Positions 1,682-62,836 are shown, numbered from the stretch's first letter. The stretch is 64,000 bases of DNA from Patescibacteria group bacterium (GCA_041653535.1 JBAZFH010000002.1:7209-71208), one strand, 5' to 3'. Notes: generated from the sequence alone by a model not told the origin. Made by a program: numbers and translations.

Positions 1682-2035
1682 CTAACCAATTTTACGAAAT
1701 CGAACAGAAAAAATCGGTTCGTACTCATTTTCATAATCATCAGTCACTTTTATTGTTTCGCCGCGGACCAACTGGTTAAGCGCCATATCGCTCAGCATTT
1801 CTTTGTCAGTCTTAATATCCAGCTCCATTAAAGACAGCTTTTCCAAATCACCGCGCAATTCGGATTTAACATCCTGCTCTATCTTTTTCTTACGCTCTCG
1901 CAATTCTTTTATTTTATCCAATAACTCTTGATAAGTTTTGGAATTAGCGAGCTCCTGCCGATAAACCGATTTTATTTCGTTACGCTGTTTTTTGTTCTGT
2001 TCAAGTCGTTTAAACACTTCGTGAAGCTGAGGCAT
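1682..2035 (-). CDS. hypothetical K/E-rich coiled-coil protein
   Basis: 117-aa ORF with heptad-like charged repeats; no recognisable catalytic motif. Confidence 0.4.
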   Translation of the reverse strand: MPQLHEVFKRLEQNKKQRNEIKSVYRQELANSKTYQELLDKIKELRERKKKIEQDVKSELRGDLEKLSLMELDIKTDKEMLSDMALNQLVRGETIKVTDDYENEYEPIFSVRFRKIG

Positions 2036-2170
2036 AATTAGTGATTAGTAATTAGTGGTTAATAATTAAGCGAGATTGTATCATAAAACAAAAAAACATA
2101 ACAACACAATAAAAAATTACTACTGCTTCCCTTTGTTATTATGTCGCTACGTTATTATGTTACGTTGTAA

Positions 2171-29436: not shown

Positions 29437-29522
29437 AGGTAAAATATTTAGGGGCTAGTATTTAGTGACCAGAAAAAGACAACTACCAAATACCAAATAC
29501 TAAGACCTAAATACTAAAATGA

Positions 29523-45240: not shown

Positions 45241-45247
45241 TTGGTAG

Positions 45248-45270
45248 AGGGTAGTGAGTAGCGGGTAAAG
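45248..45270. repeat. left arm of imperfect inverted repeat (GGTAGTGAGTAGCGGGTAAAG) flanking four-helix-bundle cassette 1
   Basis: Partner arm at 45706..45738 (CTCACTACTCACTACCCGCTAC). Confidence 0.55.
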
Positions 45271-45281
45271 AGGGACGGTTA

Positions 45282-45653
45282 TTATGACCGTTCTTTTAGT
45301 TTTCTCAGAGAGCCATTTATTAATTTCTTGGCTACAACTGTTTGCTCGGCAACCTCCAAAAACCTCTCTTCGCTAATATAACCCAGGTCTCGAGAAGCCA
45401 ATAACTAACTTTGAATTTCAACCAGCGATCCTAAAGCGATAGAATAGAAATGGATTTTTTCCAACTTAGTCCTTCTACAAAAACCTTCGGCTATGTTTGA
45501 AGGGACGGAAACGGCCGCTCGACGCAGTTGGTCAACCAAGGAATATCTTTCTTCCCTAGGAAAATTACCAGTTGCCTTATAAATCAATAAAAGTAGTTTG
45601 TGAGCCTCCTGCCAAGTAGTCAGCTGATAAAACGACTGTATTTTTTTATTCAT
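45282..45653 (-). pseudogene. four-helix-bundle protein gene (TIGR02436 / 23S-rRNA-IVS-type) interrupted by in-frame TAG at 45405..45407
   Basis: 82-aa ORF MNKKIQSFYQLTTWQEAHKL...GSLVEIQS stops at TAG; same frame continues LLASRDLGYISEERFLEVAEQTVVAKKLINGSLRKLKERS* to give the expected ~123 aa. Confidence 0.6.
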
Positions 45654-45705
45654 AATATCGTTATTTTACAAAAGCAATCATTAAATCTTTCTAAACTTTC
45701 TTTAT

Positions 45706-45738
45706 ACTCACCACTCACTACTCACTACCCGCTACTAA
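45706..45738. repeat. right arm of inverted repeat flanking cassette 1
   Basis: ACTCACCACTCACTACTCACTACCCGCTACTAAAAA. Confidence 0.55.
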
Positions 45739-45983
45739 AAACCCCTTGCCGAATATAACTACTGATTTATTTTTAGATTTAAAAAATGACCCAATTAAAC
45801 TAGGGTTATTTTTATTAAATTGACGAAAATTAGTCTTTAAGCTAAGTTATAATGATATTTTTGAGTTAAATGGCTTGGTTGCTTAAGCCAAAAACAATCA
45901 AACCATTTACCTCAATGTTGAGGTAATCGCTAAGCCTGAAGGCGGATAATTTGGGCTGGTACTTTTTTCGAAGGAGGTTTGTC

Positions 45984-46691
45984 ATGGCGGGTAAAAATTT
46001 TCCTGTCGACGGCGAACTGTACAGGACCATTGATCGACGGATGATAGAGATTAAGCGTCAGCTTAATCAGGACGGTGGAAGTCCAATTGACCCCGAACGG
46101 GTGGCAGTAGATCTTCAAAAAATTATTGAATCTGCCGTCCAAGACAATCCGTGGCCGTTTGAACTGGTGACAGATTTCGGGTTGATCGTTGTGCCCGACA
46201 ACTACAATCACGCCACGCAATTAGCCAGCTTCCGATCAAAGTACCCGGAATTGTTTGGTAACCGTTCTCAAAATATGGTTGATTCTCGTTTCGCACTGGT
46301 TAGCCATGTTTTGCGACCAGGGGAAAAATTCTGGGTTTTGGGATTTAAAAATCTTAAAGCCTATCTTAGCCCCACAACCAACGAACAGCGTTTGGCTTTT
46401 ATTAAAAGTCAAGAAGGTTTTCTGGTTGGCGCCCAAGGTCTTACCCTAGTTTGGGAGCAACGGAGCCAACTGTTTTTACCTAGGCAACATTATGCGTCCT
46501 TGGACGTAAAAAAGGCCCTGCCGAGATTTCTTGGTCATGGCAGTAAAAGTCGTGCTGGCCACGGCACTATTGTGCCGATGTTGAATTTACTAGAAAAAGG
46601 CCAAACCGAGTTTGTGCCAATCACCTTTAATTGCAACCAGTACAGCTATTTCCTCGTTTTTTATCGGCGGCAGCCGTCATTAGACAAGTAG
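45984..46691 (+). CDS. hypothetical protein, GC-rich relative to surroundings
   Basis: Start ATG 45984 preceded by GGAGG RBS; hairpin-rich leader 45870-45960. Confidence 0.6.
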   Translation: MAGKNFPVDGELYRTIDRRMIEIKRQLNQDGGSPIDPERVAVDLQKIIESAVQDNPWPFELVTDFGLIVVPDNYNHATQLASFRSKYPELFGNRSQNMVDSRFALVSHVLRPGEKFWVLGFKNLKAYLSPTTNEQRLAFIKSQEGFLVGAQGLTLVWEQRSQLFLPRQHYASLDVKKALPRFLGHGSKSRAGHGTIVPMLNLLEKGQTEFVPITFNCNQYSYFLVFYRRQPSLDK

Positions 46692-46692
46692 A

Positions 46693-46820
46693 TAGCTCTC
46701 ACTACTCTTAGGTAATCAAGGGCGTTCGTTTAGTCGGACGCCCTATTTTTTATCCATAATATCGTTAATTTATAAAAACGATCATTAACTCACCACCCGC
46801 TACCCGCTACTAAAAAACCC
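46693..46820. repeat. decayed extra copy of cassette 1 right end (5' leader, ATG, 4 codons, stop, plus IR arm ACTCACCACCCGCTACCCGCTACTAAAAAACCC)
   Basis: CATAATATCGTTAATTTATAAAAACGATCATTAACTCACCAC matches the leader of the 45653 gene almost base for base. Confidence 0.45.
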
Positions 46821-52341: not shown

Positions 52342-53505
52342 TTATTGTTTTATTGGCATTATTAAATAAAGATAGTCTCTATCCACTCCTTCTTGCGCTG
52401 AAGCTAGTACTGGTTTTATTATCACCGGAGTATTATTATCTGTCACTTCAACTAAAGCTTCGGAAGTATTAATCGCTGTTAACCCATCAAGTAAATAACG
52501 GTAATTAAGAACAACTTCATTTTGTTCTCCATTAATATTTGCTTCCAAAGAAGAAGTATTTTCTCCAATCTGCGCGTTAATAGAAGAAATTATTAGCTCT
52601 GCCTCTGGTTTTAATTGCAAAGAAATGTCATTTATACCGGATTTTACAAACAAACTTGCTGACTTAACTGCTTTTGTTAAATCGTCCGTATGAATAATCA
52701 TTTGAGTTTTATAGCTATTTGGTATTATGGCCGAATAATTTGGGTACTGCCCTTCAATCACGCGTGATATTAACTCTATATTATTATAAACAAAAAGTAT
52801 TTGATTTTCGTTTAAATAAATATCTAAAAAATCTTCCTCTCCACCATCGTTGTCTTTTTCTTTGTTAATTACTGACAATATTCTTTGTATTTCTTGCAGT
52901 GTTTTGGTTGGCAAAACCACTTTTTTTTCTTTATTCTCTTCGCTAATTTTAGATAAATTTATTTTCTTTTCAGCTAAACGATAACTATCTGTTGCCGCCA
53001 TAATTAATTTTTTGTTTTCATTGTCAAAATACATAAACACGCCTGATATTTCTGGTCGCGCTTCGGATATGGCTGTAGCAAAAACAACTTGCTGAATACC
53101 TCTAAGAAATTCATTTGGTTTTATAGAATAAGGTATGGTTTTTTTTATTTGAGGGATGAGCGGAAATTCTGAAGCAGCTTCTCCTTTTATCGTTGTTTGA
53201 TGATTGCTGCAATTAATTTTTATTTGATCTTCTTTTAACTCAAGATCAATTTTTTCTCTGGGTAGTAAATTAATATAATCCGCTAATACGCGCGCCGGTA
53301 AGGTAAATTCTCCGTTTTCCTCCACCTTACCACGAACAAAACAAGTTACGCCTATTTCTAAATTTGTGGTGGAAATTTTTATCAAACCATCCTCCGCCTT
53401 AATTAAAATATTATTTAATATTGGAAGATTAACATTTTTAGTAGCAATATGACTTGCTATTAAAAGACCTTGATTAAAATTTTCTTGGGTACAGGAAAAT
53501 TTCAT
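52342..53505 (-). CDS. dnaN: DNA polymerase III beta sliding clamp
   Basis: Three-domain clamp, canonical N-terminus MKFSCTQENFNQGLLIASHI. Confidence 0.9.
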   Translation of the reverse strand: MKFSCTQENFNQGLLIASHIATKNVNLPILNNILIKAEDGLIKISTTNLEIGVTCFVRGKVEENGEFTLPARVLADYINLLPREKIDLELKEDQIKINCSNHQTTIKGEAASEFPLIPQIKKTIPYSIKPNEFLRGIQQVVFATAISEARPEISGVFMYFDNENKKLIMAATDSYRLAEKKINLSKISEENKEKKVVLPTKTLQEIQRILSVINKEKDNDGGEEDFLDIYLNENQILFVYNNIELISRVIEGQYPNYSAIIPNSYKTQMIIHTDDLTKAVKSASLFVKSGINDISLQLKPEAELIISSINAQIGENTSSLEANINGEQNEVVLNYRYLLDGLTAINTSEALVEVTDNNTPVIIKPVLASAQEGVDRDYLYLIMPIKQ

Positions 53506-53769
53506 AAAATGTATTTTAATTATATTATATTAAAATATAATAAGTAATAATAATAAGGGGTGTGGACGGAGTGGAAAAGTGCTTTTAAAACAGCTAGGAC
53601 AAGTAGTTTTCTTTTTATTTTTGTGAATAACTTTTGTAAAAACTGCAGGTCTTGCTGTGAACAACTTTAAAGTTAAAAACCGCTTGAGAAAAAAATTGTT
53701 GAAAAACAGTTTATAACTTCTTTGGTTATATATAGTCTTTTAACAACTAATCAACAAGTTATTCAATTT
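53506..53769. promoter_or_regulatory. dnaA-dnaN intergenic region: AT-rich stretch plus DnaA-box-like 9-mers (TGTGAATAA, GTGTGGACG)
   Basis: ATTATATTATATTAAAATATAATAAGTAATAATAATAA is a candidate DNA-unwinding element. Confidence 0.4.
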
Positions 53770-55194
53770 TTAATTGTAAAGACGTTGTTTGATCATGCTT
53801 ACATCCTGTCTGATTTTTTCATCATTTTCTGCTTCCCTGGAAATTTTGGCATAAGCGTGCATAGCAGTGGTGTGGTCTCGACCGCCCATTTCTTGTCCAA
53901 TACCAGGAAAAGAAGATTTTAACTCTTCCCGCATTAAATACATAGCAATTTGTCTTGGCACCACTAATTTTTTTTCCCGGCAAGCGCCAACCAGATCAGT
54001 TAAAGTAATATCAAAAAAATCACAAATTGTTGTTAAAATGGTTTTAGCTGTTATAGCCTTTTTCTTTGAGCCGTTAGTGGTCCAGGAGGTTAAAGATTTT
54101 TTTACATTGTCTAAGCTAGGCATCATTTTATGCACTTCTACAAGGGCTAAAATCTTGTTTAAAGCGCCTTCTAGCTCACGAATATTACTCGCGACATTGT
54201 TGGCAATATAATGTAATACGTCGCTTTCTAGTTGAATGTTTTTTTCCCGGCACTTATTTTCTAAAATTGCCAAACGCATTTCGAAATCAGGAGTACCAAT
54301 ATCAGTGATAAGCCCCCATTCAAAACGAGAAATTAATCTTTCTTCTAGCGCTGGGATGGCTTTAGGCGGGCGGTCAGAAGTAACAACAATTTGTTTGTTT
54401 TCTTGGTGTAAGGCGTTAAAAGTATGAAAAAATTCTTCTTGAGTACCTTCTTTACCCGCTAAAAACTGGACGTCATCGATTAAAAGTAAATCAGGCGTAC
54501 GATAAAAACGTTTAAAATCGTCCACCGTGCCGCTTTGGATTGATTTAATAAAATCGTTAGTAAATTTTTCACAATTAACATAAAGAATTTTTTTATTTGC
54601 CGCGCTTTCTAATACACGATGACCAATAGCTTGCATTAAATGCGTTTTTCCTAAACCCACTCCCCCATAAATAAACAATGGATTATAGGTGCGACCCGGC
54701 GCTTTTGCCACAGCCATGGCAGCAGCGTTGGCGAGTTCGTTGGTTTTACCAACAACAAAGCTGTTGAAAGTATAGCGTGGATTAAGACCGAATTTGTTTG
54801 CTTTAAGATCGTTGGCTACCGGCACCGCCATTCTTGTTTCGAAACTTTTTTCTTCAAAAACCGTTTTATCTTCATCTTTTGTTTCTTCAAGGGATTTTTC
54901 TCCGTCGGAATTATTAGCGCTAAATAGGTCTTGAGCTGTCGGCTTATAAGAGGAAACGCGAAACTCTATCTTTTTTACTTTGCCTTCAGTAATTTTATCT
55001 AAACTTTTAATAATGTTGCTATAAAATTTTTGTTCCAACCATGTTTTGGTAAAAGCATTAGGGACGCCGATAACTAAGGCATTGTCGTTTTTTTCTAAAA
55101 CAAAAGTTTTTTTAAACCAAGTAGAAAAACTTCCTTTCGTTAGCGTTAGTTCAAGCTCTCCTAGTACTGTTTGCCAAAGTTGTTGGTTAGTCAT
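53770..55194 (-). CDS. dnaA: chromosomal replication initiator DnaA
   Basis: Walker A GGVGLGKTHLMQAIGH, sensor and box VII, C-terminal DNA-binding domain. Confidence 0.95.
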   Translation of the reverse strand: MTNQQLWQTVLGELELTLTKGSFSTWFKKTFVLEKNDNALVIGVPNAFTKTWLEQKFYSNIIKSLDKITEGKVKKIEFRVSSYKPTAQDLFSANNSDGEKSLEETKDEDKTVFEEKSFETRMAVPVANDLKANKFGLNPRYTFNSFVVGKTNELANAAAMAVAKAPGRTYNPLFIYGGVGLGKTHLMQAIGHRVLESAANKKILYVNCEKFTNDFIKSIQSGTVDDFKRFYRTPDLLLIDDVQFLAGKEGTQEEFFHTFNALHQENKQIVVTSDRPPKAIPALEERLISRFEWGLITDIGTPDFEMRLAILENKCREKNIQLESDVLHYIANNVASNIRELEGALNKILALVEVHKMMPSLDNVKKSLTSWTTNGSKKKAITAKTILTTICDFFDITLTDLVGACREKKLVVPRQIAMYLMREELKSSFPGIGQEMGGRDHTTAMHAYAKISREAENDEKIRQDVSMIKQRLYN

Positions 55195-57781: not shown

Positions 57782-57937
57782 ATTGGTAGTTGGTAGGTGG
57801 TAGTCGGGGTTAGTTAGGGAGCGACCCTGCATGTGCGGGGTTATCGTGATTGGCGCATTTAATAACCAAATTTCCAGTTTCTAATTTCAAGTTTTTTGTC
57901 TTTGTAGCGTCAAAATAAAGAAATCAGAAATTGGAAA

Positions 57938-60975: not shown

Positions 60976-62265
60976 TTATTTGATTATTTCCTTTTTCAGA
61001 TGCTCGATCACCTTGCGGTTGGTTAGGGATGTTGCTAGATAGCGGCGATATCCCGGAGATGATAGATTATCTGCAACTTCCGGACTTTGACCATAAACTT
61101 TTTTTATTTCTTCCAGCTCTTTATCTATTTCCTCATCGGTTGCCCAAAGTTTATTTTGATCCGCCACCTTGCGGGCAATCAGTGCTGTCTGGACGCGTTT
61201 TTTTGCTTCCGGCAGTATTTCTTTCTCCAGTTCTTGCTCGGTCTTTTTTAGATGTTTCAGATAATCTTCAAACTTTAATCCTTGATGTTCAATACTGTGT
61301 TCCAGCTCATGAATCATTTTGTGCGCTTCCGCATGGATCATGCTTTCCGGCAGTTCGGAAAATTTAGCTATTTTAATCAACTCATCCAGCATTTCTATTT
61401 CTTGTTTTTGGTTTTCCTTTTCCTCTGCTTCATGGAGTAGATTGTGTTCGATACCTTTTCTTACGTCTTCGATTGTTTGGTAGCCACCGAGAGTCTTGGC
61501 AAAGTCATTATTTAGTTCCGGCAACTCGCGTTTGAAAGTTTCTTTTACTTCCACTTTAAATTTAGCGAGTTTGCCTGCTAGATTTTTGGCATGATAGTCT
61601 TCCGGAAAGCGCAGCTCAAATTCTTTATTTTCATTTTGTGACATGCCGACTATTTGTTCTTCAAATCCTGGGATAAAGCGACCTTCGCCAATAACCAACG
61701 GAAAGTTTTTGCTTGAGCCGCCTTCGATAGCCACGCCGTCGACAAAAACGTCAAAATTCACATTAACTTTGTCGCCCTTTTCCAGCGGACCGAGTTTAAC
61801 GGTTTCTTTGGCGTGAATGTTTTGTAGGTTGGTTAAAATCGTTTCAATTTCTTTAGAATCAATCTTAACGTCTTTTTTGGCAACTTTAATTTTTGAATAA
61901 TCGTCGAGAGTTACTTCCGGCAGCAGGGTGATGATGGCTTTGTAAACCAAAGGATTGTCTGGAGCCATTTTCTCGATATTTATTTGTGGTGATCCAACCA
62001 CGTCGGTGTTAGGCAGCTCTTTTTCCAGAACTTCATAAAGGGTTTTGCCGATTATGTTGTCAGCAGCATGTTGGTAGATAGTCATTTCACCCACTTCTTT
62101 TTTTACCACGTCATAAGGCGCTTTACCCGGGCGAAACCCGGCAATACTTTTCTCAGTAGAAATAATTTCCGCGGCCTTGATCAGATAAGGTTTGGTTTCT
62201 TCGGGAGACACTTCAATGGTAAATTCGATCTGGGCTTTGGATAGTTCTTTTTTAGAGATATTCAT
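60976..62265 (-). CDS. tig: trigger factor
   Basis: Ribosome-binding N-domain, FKBP-like PPIase region (GFRPGKAP...), C-terminal arm. Confidence 0.9.
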   Translation of the reverse strand: MNISKKELSKAQIEFTIEVSPEETKPYLIKAAEIISTEKSIAGFRPGKAPYDVVKKEVGEMTIYQHAADNIIGKTLYEVLEKELPNTDVVGSPQINIEKMAPDNPLVYKAIITLLPEVTLDDYSKIKVAKKDVKIDSKEIETILTNLQNIHAKETVKLGPLEKGDKVNVNFDVFVDGVAIEGGSSKNFPLVIGEGRFIPGFEEQIVGMSQNENKEFELRFPEDYHAKNLAGKLAKFKVEVKETFKRELPELNNDFAKTLGGYQTIEDVRKGIEHNLLHEAEEKENQKQEIEMLDELIKIAKFSELPESMIHAEAHKMIHELEHSIEHQGLKFEDYLKHLKKTEQELEKEILPEAKKRVQTALIARKVADQNKLWATDEEIDKELEEIKKVYGQSPEVADNLSSPGYRRYLATSLTNRKVIEHLKKEIIK

Positions 62266-62269
62266 AAAT

Positions 62270-62303
62270 TAGTGGATAGCAGCTAGTGGCTAGCAGCTAG
62301 GGT
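62270..62303. repeat. left arm of inverted repeat (TAGTGGATAGCAGCTAGTGGCTAGCAGCTAGGG) flanking cassette 2
   Basis: Partner 62753..62784 CCTAGCCGCTAGCTACTAGTCACTAGTAGCTA. Confidence 0.55.
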
Positions 62304-62338
62304 TTAATAATATTTAATAAAAAGTTTAGCAATATTTA

Positions 62339-62764
62339 ATGTTTTATTTGTTATTTTTGTGGTATCTAACTAATATTTGTAAAGCGTATGAACAAAAATC
62401 TTGTAAGGATTTAATTGTTTGGCAGAAAGCGATCAGGTTAACCGTAGAGGTCTACAAGCTAACCGAGTCTTTTCCAAAAAATGAGCTGTTTGGTCTGACA
62501 TCGCAAATGCGTCGGGCTGCCGTATCAATAGTTTCTAATATAGCCGAGGGCTATGAGAGAAGGAGTCAAAGAGAGTTTTTAAGGTTTTTATTAATATCCT
62601 TTGGTTCGGCTGCCGAACTAGAAACGCAAATGATAATTGCCAAGAGCTTAAAGTATAGCAATCAAAAGGCTTTTGTAGAGTCAGAGCAGTTGCTATCGGA
62701 AACCTCCAAGATAACTTTCGCTTTTATCAAAAAGATTAAACTCCGGTTATTTCCTAGCCGCTAG
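62339..62764 (+). CDS. four-helix-bundle protein (TIGR02436 / rRNA-IVS-type), intact
   Basis: ...DLIVWQKAIRLTVEVYKLTESFPKNELFGLTSQMRRAAVSIVSNIAEGYERRSQREFLRFLLISFGSAAELETQMIIAKSL...; N-terminal 20 codons of ORF are probably leader, so the true start is likely later. Confidence 0.75.
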   Translation: MFYLLFLWYLTNICKAYEQKSCKDLIVWQKAIRLTVEVYKLTESFPKNELFGLTSQMRRAAVSIVSNIAEGYERRSQREFLRFLLISFGSAAELETQMIIAKSLKYSNQKAFVESEQLLSETSKITFAFIKKIKLRLFPSR

Positions 62765-62784
62765 CTACTAGTCACTAGTAGCTA
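62753..62784. repeat. right arm of inverted repeat flanking cassette 2 (overlaps stop codon)
   Basis: See left arm. Confidence 0.55.
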
Positions 62785-62836
62785 TTTTTTAGTGAGCCTA
62801 GTTTAGCAAAGGAAAGAAAGAAAGGCAATATCAGGT

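What the first reader, a model, noticed from the sequence alone, without database searches (positions are those of the whole stretch)
62270..62792. Second, intact four-helix-bundle cassette with its own inverted repeats immediately upstream of tig
Same architecture as the 45.2-kb cassette, but the IR arms use a different sequence (TAGTGGCTAGCAGCTAGG / CCTAGCCGCTAGCTACTAG). These are still built from TAG-containing CTAG/TAGTG units. The right arm overlaps the stop codon and the left arm starts 5 bp from the tig start codon. Two independent cassettes with family-specific repeats argue for a multi-copy element family rather than coincidence.
Basis: seen in the sequence. Interest (0 to 1): 0.6.

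Follow-up and report, generated by a model that had tools for sequence, protein, structure and literature searches.

The report
Hairpin-flanked four-helix gene cassette
A small conserved gene beside the trigger-factor gene is bracketed by two mirror-image runs of 7-base repeats, the same design as the "intervening sequences" that split ribosomal RNA in some bacteria, and most of the 79 relatives I could test, from many bacterial phyla, share this design.

Summary
A PF05635/TIGR02436 four-helix-bundle ORF (62339-62764, +) lies between two complementary arms, 62266-62301 and 62753-62788. None of 1000 dinucleotide shuffles reaches the observed arm match. The arms are tandem heptads, TAGNNNN. The right arm also holds a local hairpin followed by T6, which looks like a terminator.

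This design is widespread in the family. In 79 homologous loci from many phyla, 63% have a strong flanking inverted repeat, against 1.8% of control ORFs. The arms have period 7 (46 of 60) or 8 (11 of 60). The unit reads [T>C>A]AG+NNNN in 53 of 60. The median element is 473 nt.

This matches the Coxiella 23S rRNA intervening sequence: an S23p ORF, a 28-bp terminal stem cut by RNase III, and GACAGAT heptamers. None of 40 surveyed copies lies in rRNA.

At the yebC-ruvC junction, relatives show empty, ORF-less-hairpin and filled states, and two cassette lineages occupy that site.

My best reading is an IVS-type stem-loop cassette outside rRNA, whose arms pair in transcripts and are probably processed by RNase III. 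Mobility and the protein's role are inferred.

One caveat applies to "intact": the canonical ATG (62388) is one base out of frame.

The parts
62266..62301 (+). Left (5') arm: AAAT + TAGTGGA TAGCAGC TAGTGGC TAGCAGC TAGG, heptad units in a 14-nt super-unit. On the minus strand it is the last 36 nt before the tig start codon.
   Evidence: I1-I3; TRF: period 14, 2.2 copies, 94% matches; period 7, 3.4 copies; run of five TAG at period 7.
62302..62389 (+). AT-rich leader between the left arm and the conserved part of the ORF. It contains the out-of-frame canonical ATG (62388-62390), which is followed by an A5 run (62394-62398). By eye there are weak divergent promoter-like hexamers; the promoter scan does not report them.
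   Evidence: The promoter reading is my inference only.
62339..62764 (+). Four-helix-bundle protein ORF (PF05635 / TIGR02436; 141 aa as annotated in NCBI). The conserved core starts near 62390.
   Evidence: identical protein P0001 in a Patescibacteria MAG; PDB 2GSC, E=5e-35.
62753..62788 (+). Right (3') arm: CC TAGCCGC TAGCTAC TAGTCAC TAGTAGC TATTTT, complementary to the left arm. It overlaps the stop codon at 62762-62764.
62762..62790 (+). Local hairpin inside the right arm (TAGCTACTAGT c ACTAGTAGCTA), followed by T6. It looks like an intrinsic terminator for the ORF.
   Evidence: I17: 11 nt, 100% complementary; -13.8 kcal/mol.
60976..62265 (-). tig (trigger factor), the neighbouring gene. 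The sequence just before its start codon is the antisense of the left arm.
45241..45745 (-). Cassette 1, between yebC and ruvC. It has a 3' arm at 45241-45275 (TAGAGGG TAGTGAG TAGCGGG TAAAGAG on the + strand), an ORF at 45282..45653 broken by an in-frame TAG at 45405-45407, and a 5' arm at 45705-45745.
   Evidence: The orthologue L193 has Gln at the position of the stop.
46743..46815 (-). Truncated third copy. It keeps the start codon, leader and 5' arm (ACTCACCACCCGCTACCCGCTACTAAAAAACCC), which are homologous to the 5' end of cassette 1, but it has no ORF body.
29445..29513 (.). ORF-less inverted heptad pair (units TAGTATT / TAGTGAC against CTAAATA...), with 25 nt between the arms.
   Evidence: 22 nt, 82% complementary.

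Best explanation
The 62.27-62.79 kb feature is a copy, outside rRNA, of the stem-loop cassette known from 23S rRNA intervening sequences (IVS). The unit is about 520 bp. It consists of a 5' array of TAGNNNN heptads, a short leader, a PF05635 'S23p'/four-helix-bundle ORF, and a 3' array that is the reverse complement of the first.

Shown here: the anatomy, its statistical reality, and its occurrence in most surveyed homologues. Also shown: presence/absence states at one conserved operon junction, and vertical inheritance of a cassette together with its arms.

Inferred: whenever the region is transcribed, in either direction, the two arrays pair into a duplex of roughly 25-35 bp that is a substrate for RNase III. 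The cassette is then cut out of, or insulated from, the host transcript. Here that transcript would be the tig leader; elsewhere it is an operon mRNA or rRNA. This would explain why such cassettes are tolerated exactly between a stop codon and the next start codon, in either orientation.

In this copy the right arm also folds locally into a hairpin plus T6 that probably terminates the ORF's own transcript.

The tandem 7-nt (sometimes 8-nt) structure lets the arms pair in several registers and change length by slippage. It also puts an inward-facing TAG in all three reading frames on both strands.

The encoded protein is a relative of pentameric XCC0516 and, distantly, of the DGR protein Avd. 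I presume it binds nucleic acid and acts on the element's own arms or RNA. Its role, and any mobility mechanism, are not shown. Insertion into new sites is ancient or rare, not ongoing in this genome.
For: Anatomy and significance.

Survey of homologues:
- 79 homologous loci were tested. 63% have IR score >=28, against 1.8% of controls.
- The arm period is 7 in 46 of 60 loci and 8 in 11 of 60. The median arm is 30 nt (about 4.3 units) and the median element is 473 nt.
- The unit is [T/C/A]AG+NNNN in 53 of 60 loci.
- Arrays of period 7 or 8 occur at 3.7 per kb in cassette flanks, against 0.30 per kb elsewhere in the same loci.

Same design in an experimentally studied IVS: the Coxiella IVS has an S23p ORF, a 28-bp terminal stem cut in mid-stem by RNase III, and 2-3 GACAGAT heptamers just upstream of the ORF, with copy number varying between strains (PMC4990558).

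Cassettes fill operon junctions exactly:
- L169: gaps of 32 nt after the Nramp gene and 28 nt before the BacA gene.
- Riemerella: from just after the stop of the upstream Fe-S accessory ('sufA-like') gene to 3 nt before the sufB start.
- The upstream arm ends a median of 30 nt before the start codon, which usually leaves no room for an internal promoter.

Filled, ORF-less and empty states at yebC-ruvC, in relatives with conserved synteny:
- Window and L193: cassette lineage A.
- L087: cassette lineage B.
- L195: an ORF-less inverted heptad pair.
- L196: a 2-nt spacer.
- About 64 more distant junctions lack a four-helix gene.

The arm duplex is stable on both strands: -39.5 kcal/mol sense and -36.9 antisense.
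Against: - There are no RNA data for this organism, so pairing and RNase III cleavage are extrapolated from Coxiella.
- Mismatches in the arms show no bias toward G-U on the sense strand (48 G-U type against 50 A-C type). Selection for one sense RNA stem is therefore not demonstrated. Pairing might be kept at the DNA level or on both strands.
- In this copy the arms are only 72-84% complementary. The 88-nt AT-rich leader could hold a promoter, in which case the ORF's own mRNA would lack the left arm.
- The exact same cassette protein (P0104, P0010) was found in one genomic context only across many samples. No near-identical copies at different sites were found, so there is no sign of recent transposition.
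- In Coxiella the protein was not detected in vivo (PMC4990558).
- About a quarter of surveyed homologues show no flanking repeat.
Confidence: 0.6

Rival explanations
1. The cassette is a DNA-level mobile element. The heptad arrays would be terminal inverted repeats, or single-strand DNA hairpins, recognised by the four-helix-bundle pentamer through the periodic YAG. Complementarity would be renewed each time one arm is copied from the other.
For: - Arm mismatches show no G-U bias, as expected if pairing or recognition is at the DNA level.
- A conserved AG recurs every 7 nt while the remaining positions vary between loci, which suggests a periodic recognition signal.
- Arms hold about 4-5 units and the homologue XCC0516 is a pentamer (2GSC has 5 chains).
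- Two cassette lineages occupy the same yebC-ruvC site.
- A truncated copy sits 1.1 kb from cassette 1.
Against: - There is no transposase, recombinase or reverse transcriptase within 38-64 kb.
- No target-site duplication is visible at this copy (my reading).
- No near-identical copies in different contexts were found.
- A 120-aa helical bundle has no known catalytic fold for DNA breakage and joining (my own knowledge).
Confidence: 0.2
2. These are ordinary regulatory hairpins and not an element. The arms would be terminator or insulator structures built from simple-sequence repeats common in these genomes, and they merely happen to surround a small accessory gene.
For: - The right arm contains a hairpin plus T6.
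- ORF-less inverted arrays and solo arrays occur elsewhere in the window and in relatives: 29445-29513, 2034-2069, 57783-57815, and L083, L081, L092, L133, L144, L195.
- Paired heptamer arrays without a noted ORF were reported in Xanthomonas (PMC4692102).
Against: - Arrays are 12-fold enriched next to PF05635 genes, and only 1.8% of control ORFs are bracketed in this way.
- The left arm here is upstream of both divergent genes, so it cannot terminate either.
- The same ORF+arms unit occurs inside rRNA (PMC4990558).
- At a conserved operon junction the whole unit is either present or absent.
Confidence: 0.12
3. The ORF is an Avd left over from a diversity-generating retroelement (DGR), and the repeats are decayed template/variable repeats.
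For: There are weak matches to bAvd (PF22296, 26.5 bits) and to NF033474 DivGenRetAVD (24.1 bits).
Against: - Both scores are far below their cutoffs (40 and 80 bits).
- No reverse transcriptase lies within 26 kb.
- The repeats are 7-nt tandem arrays in inverted orientation, not direct TR/VR repeats of about 100 nt.
Confidence: 0.03
4. The match between the arms is a chance effect of low-complexity, CTAG-rich sequence.
For: The units are partly palindromic, so the arms also match as direct repeats (family D1).
Against: - None of 1000 dinucleotide shuffles reaches the observed score.
- CTAG is under-represented in the window (128 observed against 228 expected) and clusters only at the two arms.
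- The pattern recurs across the family.
Confidence: 0.01

Closest known systems
23S rRNA intervening sequences that carry an S23p ORF (Coxiella burnetii helix 45; Leptospira)
   Same: - The ORF belongs to the same protein family (PF05635).
- The size is similar: 428-444 nt in Coxiella, 523 nt here, and a median of 473 nt in the survey.
- The ends are complementary and form a stem of about 28 bp.
- Tandem heptamers (GACAGAT, which fits the YAG+4 pattern) lie directly upstream of the ORF, and their copy number varies (PMC4990558).
   Different: - This copy is not in rRNA. It lies between tig and a hypothetical gene, and 0 of 40 surveyed homologues are in rRNA.
- RNase III cleavage is untested here.
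- This copy has its own terminator-like hairpin.
ORF-less 23S rRNA intervening sequences (Salmonella, Yersinia, Campylobacter, Alphaproteobacteria helix 9/25/45)
   Same: They are extended stem-loops excised by RNase III, as summarised in PMC4990558. The ORF-less inverted heptad pairs seen here are analogous (29445-29513; L195, L083, L081).
   Different: They have no ORF and lie in rRNA. I did not test whether their stems are built from heptads.
Heptamer simple-sequence arrays: GGGAATC arrays of Xanthomonas, GGGGA(C/T)T arrays of Nostoc PCC 7120, and the repetitive heptanucleotides of Calothrix (called STRR in other literature, from my own knowledge)
   Same: They are intergenic tandem 7-nt arrays, mostly of about four units. 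In Xanthomonas 70-75 occur as convergent pairs on opposite strands (PMC4692102).
   Different: That paper treats them as G-quadruplex-forming repeats and makes no link to PF05635 genes. The units here are TAG-based and are not G4-prone.
Avd, the accessory protein of diversity-generating retroelements (bAvd, PDB 4DWL)
   Same: It is a distantly related four-helix-bundle protein. Its pentameric, basic, nucleic-acid- and RT-binding character is from my own knowledge; PMC10053308 notes the similarity between PF05635 and Avd.
   Different: There is no adjacent reverse transcriptase or TR/VR pair, and the scores are below the family cutoffs.
MITEs / REP elements
   Same: They are short intergenic inverted-repeat elements with many copies per genome and no transposase of their own.
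   Different: MITE ends are conserved in sequence between copies, and MITEs have target-site duplications (my own knowledge). Here the arm sequence differs between cassette lineages, only the periodic YAG and the complementarity recur, and no duplication was seen.

Membership tests
PF05635 / TIGR02436 four-helix-bundle ('23S rRNA IVS protein', 'S23p') family | The profile HMM score is above the curated cutoff over the full domain. | tested here: met
   PF05635: 133 bits against a cutoff of 33.8, profile positions 1-103 of 106. TIGR02436: 127.3 bits against a cutoff of 24.
PF05635 / TIGR02436 four-helix-bundle ('23S rRNA IVS protein', 'S23p') family | The conserved R-x3-S-x3-N-x2-E motif is present. 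PMC3936711 gives it as GxxRxxxSxxxNxxE. | tested here: met
   R59, S63, N67 and E70 of the 141-aa ORF lie in invariant columns of the alignment.
PF05635 / TIGR02436 four-helix-bundle ('23S rRNA IVS protein', 'S23p') family | The protein assembles as a pentamer of four-helix bundles. | not testable with these tools
   Only sequence homology to pentameric structures is available: 2GSC (E=5e-35) and 2RLD (5 chains each). No structure was predicted.
rRNA intervening sequence (IVS) element | The element is inserted in a 23S (or 16S) rRNA helix. | tested here: not met
   Rfam finds only three tRNAs in the window. The cassette lies between tig and a hypothetical gene.
rRNA intervening sequence (IVS) element | Terminal complementary sequences form a long stem that encloses the rest of the element. 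| tested here: met
   The arms are 36 nt at 72% complementarity and 25 nt at 84%. The minimum-free-energy fold of 62255-62800 pairs the two arms. The duplex energy is -39.5 kcal/mol.
rRNA intervening sequence (IVS) element | RNase III excises the element in the stem. | not testable with these tools
   This needs RNA end mapping or an in vitro assay. It has been shown only for Coxiella and other rRNA IVSs (PMC4990558).
rRNA intervening sequence (IVS) element | Tandem heptamers lie upstream of the S23p ORF (a feature of the Coxiella IVS). | tested here: met
   The left arm reads TAGTGGA TAGCAGC TAGTGGC TAGCAGC. Period 7 is found in 46 of 60 surveyed homologues.
Diversity-generating retroelement (Avd component) | A reverse transcriptase and a TR/VR repeat pair are adjacent, and the Avd equivalog score is above cutoff. 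| tested here: not met
   NF033474 scores 24.1 bits against a cutoff of 80. No RT domain is found in ORFs of 140 aa or more between 38 and 64 kb.
Intrinsic terminator (as the sole explanation of the IR) | A GC-containing hairpin is followed by a T-run downstream of a gene, and this accounts for both arms. | tested here: not met
   The right arm has a hairpin plus T6. The left arm lies upstream of both divergent genes and has no T-run. The long-range complementarity recurs across most of the family.
Transposon / MITE | The element has a transposase or transposase-recognised conserved ends, a target-site duplication, and near-identical copies at several sites. | tested here: not met
   No transposase is nearby. 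Arm sequences differ between cassettes. The exact cassette proteins P0104 and P0010 occur in one context only. Target-site duplication was checked by eye at this copy only.

The most novel reading that the evidence does not exclude
PF05635 genes, which form about 40,000 clusters at 50% identity, may be the protein component of one very widespread and so far undescribed class of hairpin elements. On this reading the pentameric Avd-like protein recognises the periodic YAG heptads of its own arms and drives copying of the element. Copying might go through an RNA or single-strand intermediate, with one arm templated from the other. The classical rRNA intervening sequences, the ORF-less heptamer hairpins and cyanobacterial STRR-type arrays would then all be special or decayed cases of this class.
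Probability: 0.22. Interest if true: 0.8.

Novelty: new variant of a known kind. Interest (0 to 1): 0.6.

Why it matters
The function of the rRNA intervening sequences and of their 'S23p' ORF has been open since about 1990-93. PF05635/TIGR02436 is also one of the large families annotated only as 'four helix bundle protein'.

If the arm-ORF-arm design with phased YAG heptads is the normal state of this family, and rRNA copies are the rare exception, the question becomes directly testable. The tests would be whether the protein binds heptad arrays and whether RNase III cuts the stems in mRNAs. The design would also connect unexplained heptamer repeats in Xanthomonas, cyanobacteria and CPR bacteria to a gene.

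For annotation, the design gives a simple rule for recognising cassettes, their pseudogenes and their ORF-less relics. It also warns that genes such as tig, ruvC, sufB and the BacA gene in L169 may be expressed through transcripts that carry, or are processed at, these stems.

Tried and rejected
- **G-U against A-C mismatch test**, to decide which strand folds as RNA: 48 against 50, so uninformative.
- **Direct copy (A') of the upstream arm next to the stop codon**, which would suggest an alternative-pairing switch. It is seen in L087 and in the P0010 locus, but in only 4 of 60 surveyed loci, so it is not general.
- **Recent mobility**, tested by looking up exact proteins in many assemblies. 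P0104 and P0010 always sit in the same context with identical arms.
- **Nostoc PCC 7120 plasmids alpha and gamma.** They share an identical protein, but the shared segment also includes an ISL3 fragment and the upstream arm is missing, so this is not a clean boundary test.
- **Empty site upstream of tig.** Relatives (L081, L083, L085) lack the cassette, but their upstream genes differ, so no exact boundary could be drawn.
- **Compensatory substitutions between orthologous cassettes** (window cassette 1 against L193). The differences are explained by gain or loss of units and by register shifts, not by clean paired substitutions.
- **Defence-system link.** There are no PADLOC hits.
- **Phage carriage.** There are no tblastn hits in 50,697 phage records.
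- **rRNA context.** Only 40 of the 80 survey loci were scanned.
- **Literature.** Five full-text searches found no paper stating that non-rRNA PF05635 genes are generally flanked by inverted heptamer arrays. The library lacks most subscription journals, including Ralph & McClelland 1993.

Full report
**1. What is at the coordinates**

The window is 39.7% G+C. It comes from a Patescibacteria (CPR) metagenome-assembled genome: the ORF's product is identical to an NCBI 'four helix bundle protein [Patescibacteria group bacterium]' on a 323-kb contig.

- tig (Trigger_N, FKBP_C, Trigger_C) lies at 60976..62265 on the minus strand.
- An ORF at 62339..62764 runs divergently from it. It matches PF05635 23S_rRNA_IVP (E=5.9e-39) and TIGR02436 (E=2.8e-37) over the full domain.
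- Its closest solved relatives are XCC0516 (2GSC, E=5e-35) and 2RLD, each deposited with five chains.
- The arms are 62266-62301 and 62753-62788, 36 nt at 72% complementarity. The best sub-arms are 25 nt at 84%.
- The stop codon lies inside the right arm. The left arm abuts the tig start codon.
- None of 1000 dinucleotide shuffles reaches the observed arm score. The arm duplex is -39.5 kcal/mol on the sense strand and -36.9 on the antisense strand, against -23.6 +/- 3.9 for shuffled arms.
- The minimum-free-energy fold of the whole cassette closes it with this stem.
- The right arm also contains a perfect 11-bp local hairpin followed by T6, a terminator-like site.

**2. The arms are heptad arrays**

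Read in phase, the left arm is TAGTGGA TAGCAGC TAGTGGC TAGCAGC TAGG. The right arm is TAGCCGC TAGCTAC TAGTCAC TAGTAGC.

Cassette 1 at 45.2 kb has TAGAGGG TAGTGAG TAGCGGG TAAAGAG on one side. The complement of TAGCGGG TAGTGAG TAGTGAG TGGTGAG lies on the other side.

Runs of three or more TAG at a spacing of exactly 7 occur 10 times in the window, against 0.8 expected. They are essentially absent at spacings of 6, 8 and 9. The TAG runs always read inward, into the element. A 7-nt period therefore places a stop codon in all three frames on both strands.

**3. Survey of the family**

A scan of one genome per species returned 80 homologous loci. They come from Patescibacteria, Acidobacteriota, Bacteroidota, Firmicutes, Planctomycetota, Proteobacteria, Cyanobacteria and other phyla.

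I aligned 160 nt upstream of each gene with the reverse complement of 175 nt downstream.

- 63% of 79 testable loci score >=28. Only 1.8% of 385 control ORFs (80-220 aa) in the same loci do so.
- Among the 60 loci with a clear repeat (score >=24; 58 surveyed loci plus the two window cassettes), the arm period is 7 in 46 and 8 in 11.
- The median arm is 30 nt, about 4.3 units. The median element is 473 nt.
- The unit sequence differs from locus to locus (TAGTGGT, CAGTGAA, TAGGGTA, AAGGTTCA, CAGATGC and so on), but the two arms of each locus agree.
- The unit reads [T 28, C 10, A 4]AG followed by four variable bases in 53 of 60 loci.
- Arrays of period 7 or 8 occur at 3.7 per kb in cassette flanks, 0.30 per kb elsewhere in the same loci, and 0.16 per kb in unrelated loci.
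- The upstream arm ends a median of 30 nt before the start codon. The downstream arm overlaps the stop codon in 37% of loci.
- The family is large: 39,720 clusters at 50% identity at E<=1e-3.

**4. Link to known biology**

The Coxiella burnetii 23S rRNA IVS is a 428-nt element in helix 45.

- It carries an S23p ORF of this family.
- Its 5' part holds two or three tandem GACAGAT heptamers just before the ORF, with copy number varying between strains (PMC4990558).

This is the same anatomy, including the YAG+4 unit (CAGATGA).

PF05635 ORFs have also been reported in other places:
- in some CPR 16S and 23S rRNA insertions (PMC11270868);
- wedged between cas genes such as cmr3 and cmr2 (PMC3936711).

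Xanthomonas carries GGGAATC heptamer arrays, 70-75 of them as convergent pairs, but that work makes no link to this gene family (PMC4692102).

None of the 40 survey loci I scanned lies in rRNA. The rRNA location that named the family therefore appears to be the exception.

**5. Insertion, inheritance and decay**

Cassettes often fill an operon junction exactly.
- In L169 the gaps are 32 nt after the Nramp gene and 28 nt before the BacA gene.
- In Riemerella the cassette runs from just after the stop of the upstream Fe-S accessory ('sufA-like') gene to 3 nt before the sufB start.

The yebC-ruvC junction gives a graded series in relatives with conserved synteny (PGI-YebC-X-RuvC-PBP).

| Locus | Relatedness to window | State of the junction |
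|---|---|---|
| L196 | YebC 63% | 2-nt spacer |
| L195 | YebC 67% | 142-nt spacer holding an ORF-less inverted TACGAAT/ATTCGTA pair |
| L193 | YebC 72% | Cassette whose ORF is 69% identical to window cassette 1 and whose arms share the same unit types; the cassette DNA is 82% identical |
| L087 | tig 65% | Cassette of another lineage: ORF 43% identical to cassette 1, arms built from CAGGCCGA |
| L194 | YebC 69% | An unrelated 363-aa gene |

About 64 more distant yebC-ruvC junctions have no four-helix gene. Several of those carry ORF-less inverted arrays.

From this series I conclude that cassettes are gained at tight junctions and are then inherited vertically together with their arms. They also decay. 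Window cassette 1 has a CAG-to-TAG nonsense change. A truncated copy that keeps only the start codon, leader and 5' arm sits at 46743-46815.

The same protein in many samples always has the same context. Movement is therefore rare.

**6. How it most likely works**

Shown: the anatomy, its statistics, its occurrence in most homologues surveyed, the presence/absence series, and the experimental precedent in Coxiella.

Inferred: the two arrays pair whenever both are on one transcript. The stem is about equally stable on either strand, which fits cassettes found in either orientation relative to their host operon. RNase III cleaves the stem, so the insertion is tolerated in rRNA, in operon mRNAs and, here, in the tig leader.

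The tandem structure allows several pairing registers and length changes by slippage. Unit-number differences are seen between Coxiella strains, between two Nostoc plasmids, and between the window cassette and L103's counterpart L193.

The protein's invariant polar residues argue for a conserved biochemical role. I think binding of the element's own arms or RNA is the most likely role. This is not tested.

Evidence against a purely RNA-level constraint: arm mismatches show no G-U excess (48 against 50).

**7. Caveats specific to this copy**

- The ATG at 62388 would give the MNKK N-terminus seen in cassette 1, in the truncated copy and in homologues. It is out of frame by one base at an A5 run.
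- The annotated 141-aa product starts at ATG 62339 with a 17-residue hydrophobic extension that homologues lack.
- This copy may therefore be a fresh pseudogene, or the assembly may have a homopolymer error.
- The 88-nt AT-rich leader might hold divergent promoters for tig and for the ORF. This is my reading only; the scan does not report them.

**8. Verdict**

The cassette is a new variant of a known kind: an IVS-type S23p stem-loop cassette outside rRNA. Its presence across most of the surveyed family, its heptad phasing and its ORF-less relatives are not described in the literature I could search.

Noticed in passing
window 62388-62398: The start codon that would give the usual N-terminus (MNKK...) is one base out of frame at an A5 run. 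Read from that ATG, the frame stops after 8 codons. The annotated ORF relies on an upstream ATG (62339), which adds a 17-aa extension that homologues lack.
   Followed up: yes
window 46743-46815 and 45951-46691: A second copy of the 5' end of cassette 1 (start codon, leader, ACCCGCT arm) has no ORF body. Together with cassette 1 it brackets, as a direct repeat, a 246-aa gene with no Pfam match that sits between yebC and ruvC. The relative L194 has a different, 363-aa gene at that junction.
   Followed up: partly
window 29445-29513: An ORF-less inverted pair of heptad arrays (TAGTATT/TAGTGAC against CTAAATA...) has 25 nt between its arms. Similar ORF-less pairs occur in L081 2700-2832, L083 2782-2876, L195 2302-2436, L092, L133 and L144.
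   Followed up: partly
window 2034-2069 and 57783-57815; L083 2950-2999: Solo TAG-heptad arrays lie directly against the start codons of minus-strand genes, as at tig. In L083, tig itself is preceded by CTAAGGA/CTAGGGA x6 ending in 'CTAAT ATG'; the window reads '...CTATCCA CTAATTT ATG'. Heptad arrays in 5' leaders may have a role of their own.
   Followed up: no
L087 2856-3445; L179 (P0010 locus), about 1460-2000: Some cassettes have three arrays: upstream arm A, a direct copy A' just after the stop codon, a short loop, and then the inverse arm a. The inverse arm could therefore pair either locally or across the ORF. Only 4 of 60 surveyed loci show this.
   Followed up: yes
L189 and L190 (Nostoc PCC 7120 plasmids gamma and alpha): An identical four-helix protein (WP_010994075.1) is encoded on two plasmids. 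The downstream CTTCTGC/CCTCTGC array differs by one unit between them, and an ISL3 transposase fragment lies where the upstream arm would be.
   Followed up: partly
window, whole: CTAG is under-represented overall (128 observed against 228 expected from base composition), yet it is concentrated in the cassette 2 arms.
   Followed up: no
window 52342-55194: dnaN and dnaA are adjacent on the minus strand, so the chromosomal replication origin is probably near 55-56 kb, a few kb from the cassette.
   Followed up: no
L023 1257-1342: A Flavo-1 RNA motif (RF01705, 62 bits) lies 1.5 kb upstream of a Flavobacterium cassette. It is probably unrelated.
   Followed up: no
L191 1905-2480 (Riemerella 'plasmid' NZ_CP081930.1): A cassette sits inside the suf operon, between the upstream Fe-S accessory ('sufA-like') gene and sufB. 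The record also carries lepA and suf genes, which look chromosomal rather than plasmid-borne.
   Followed up: no
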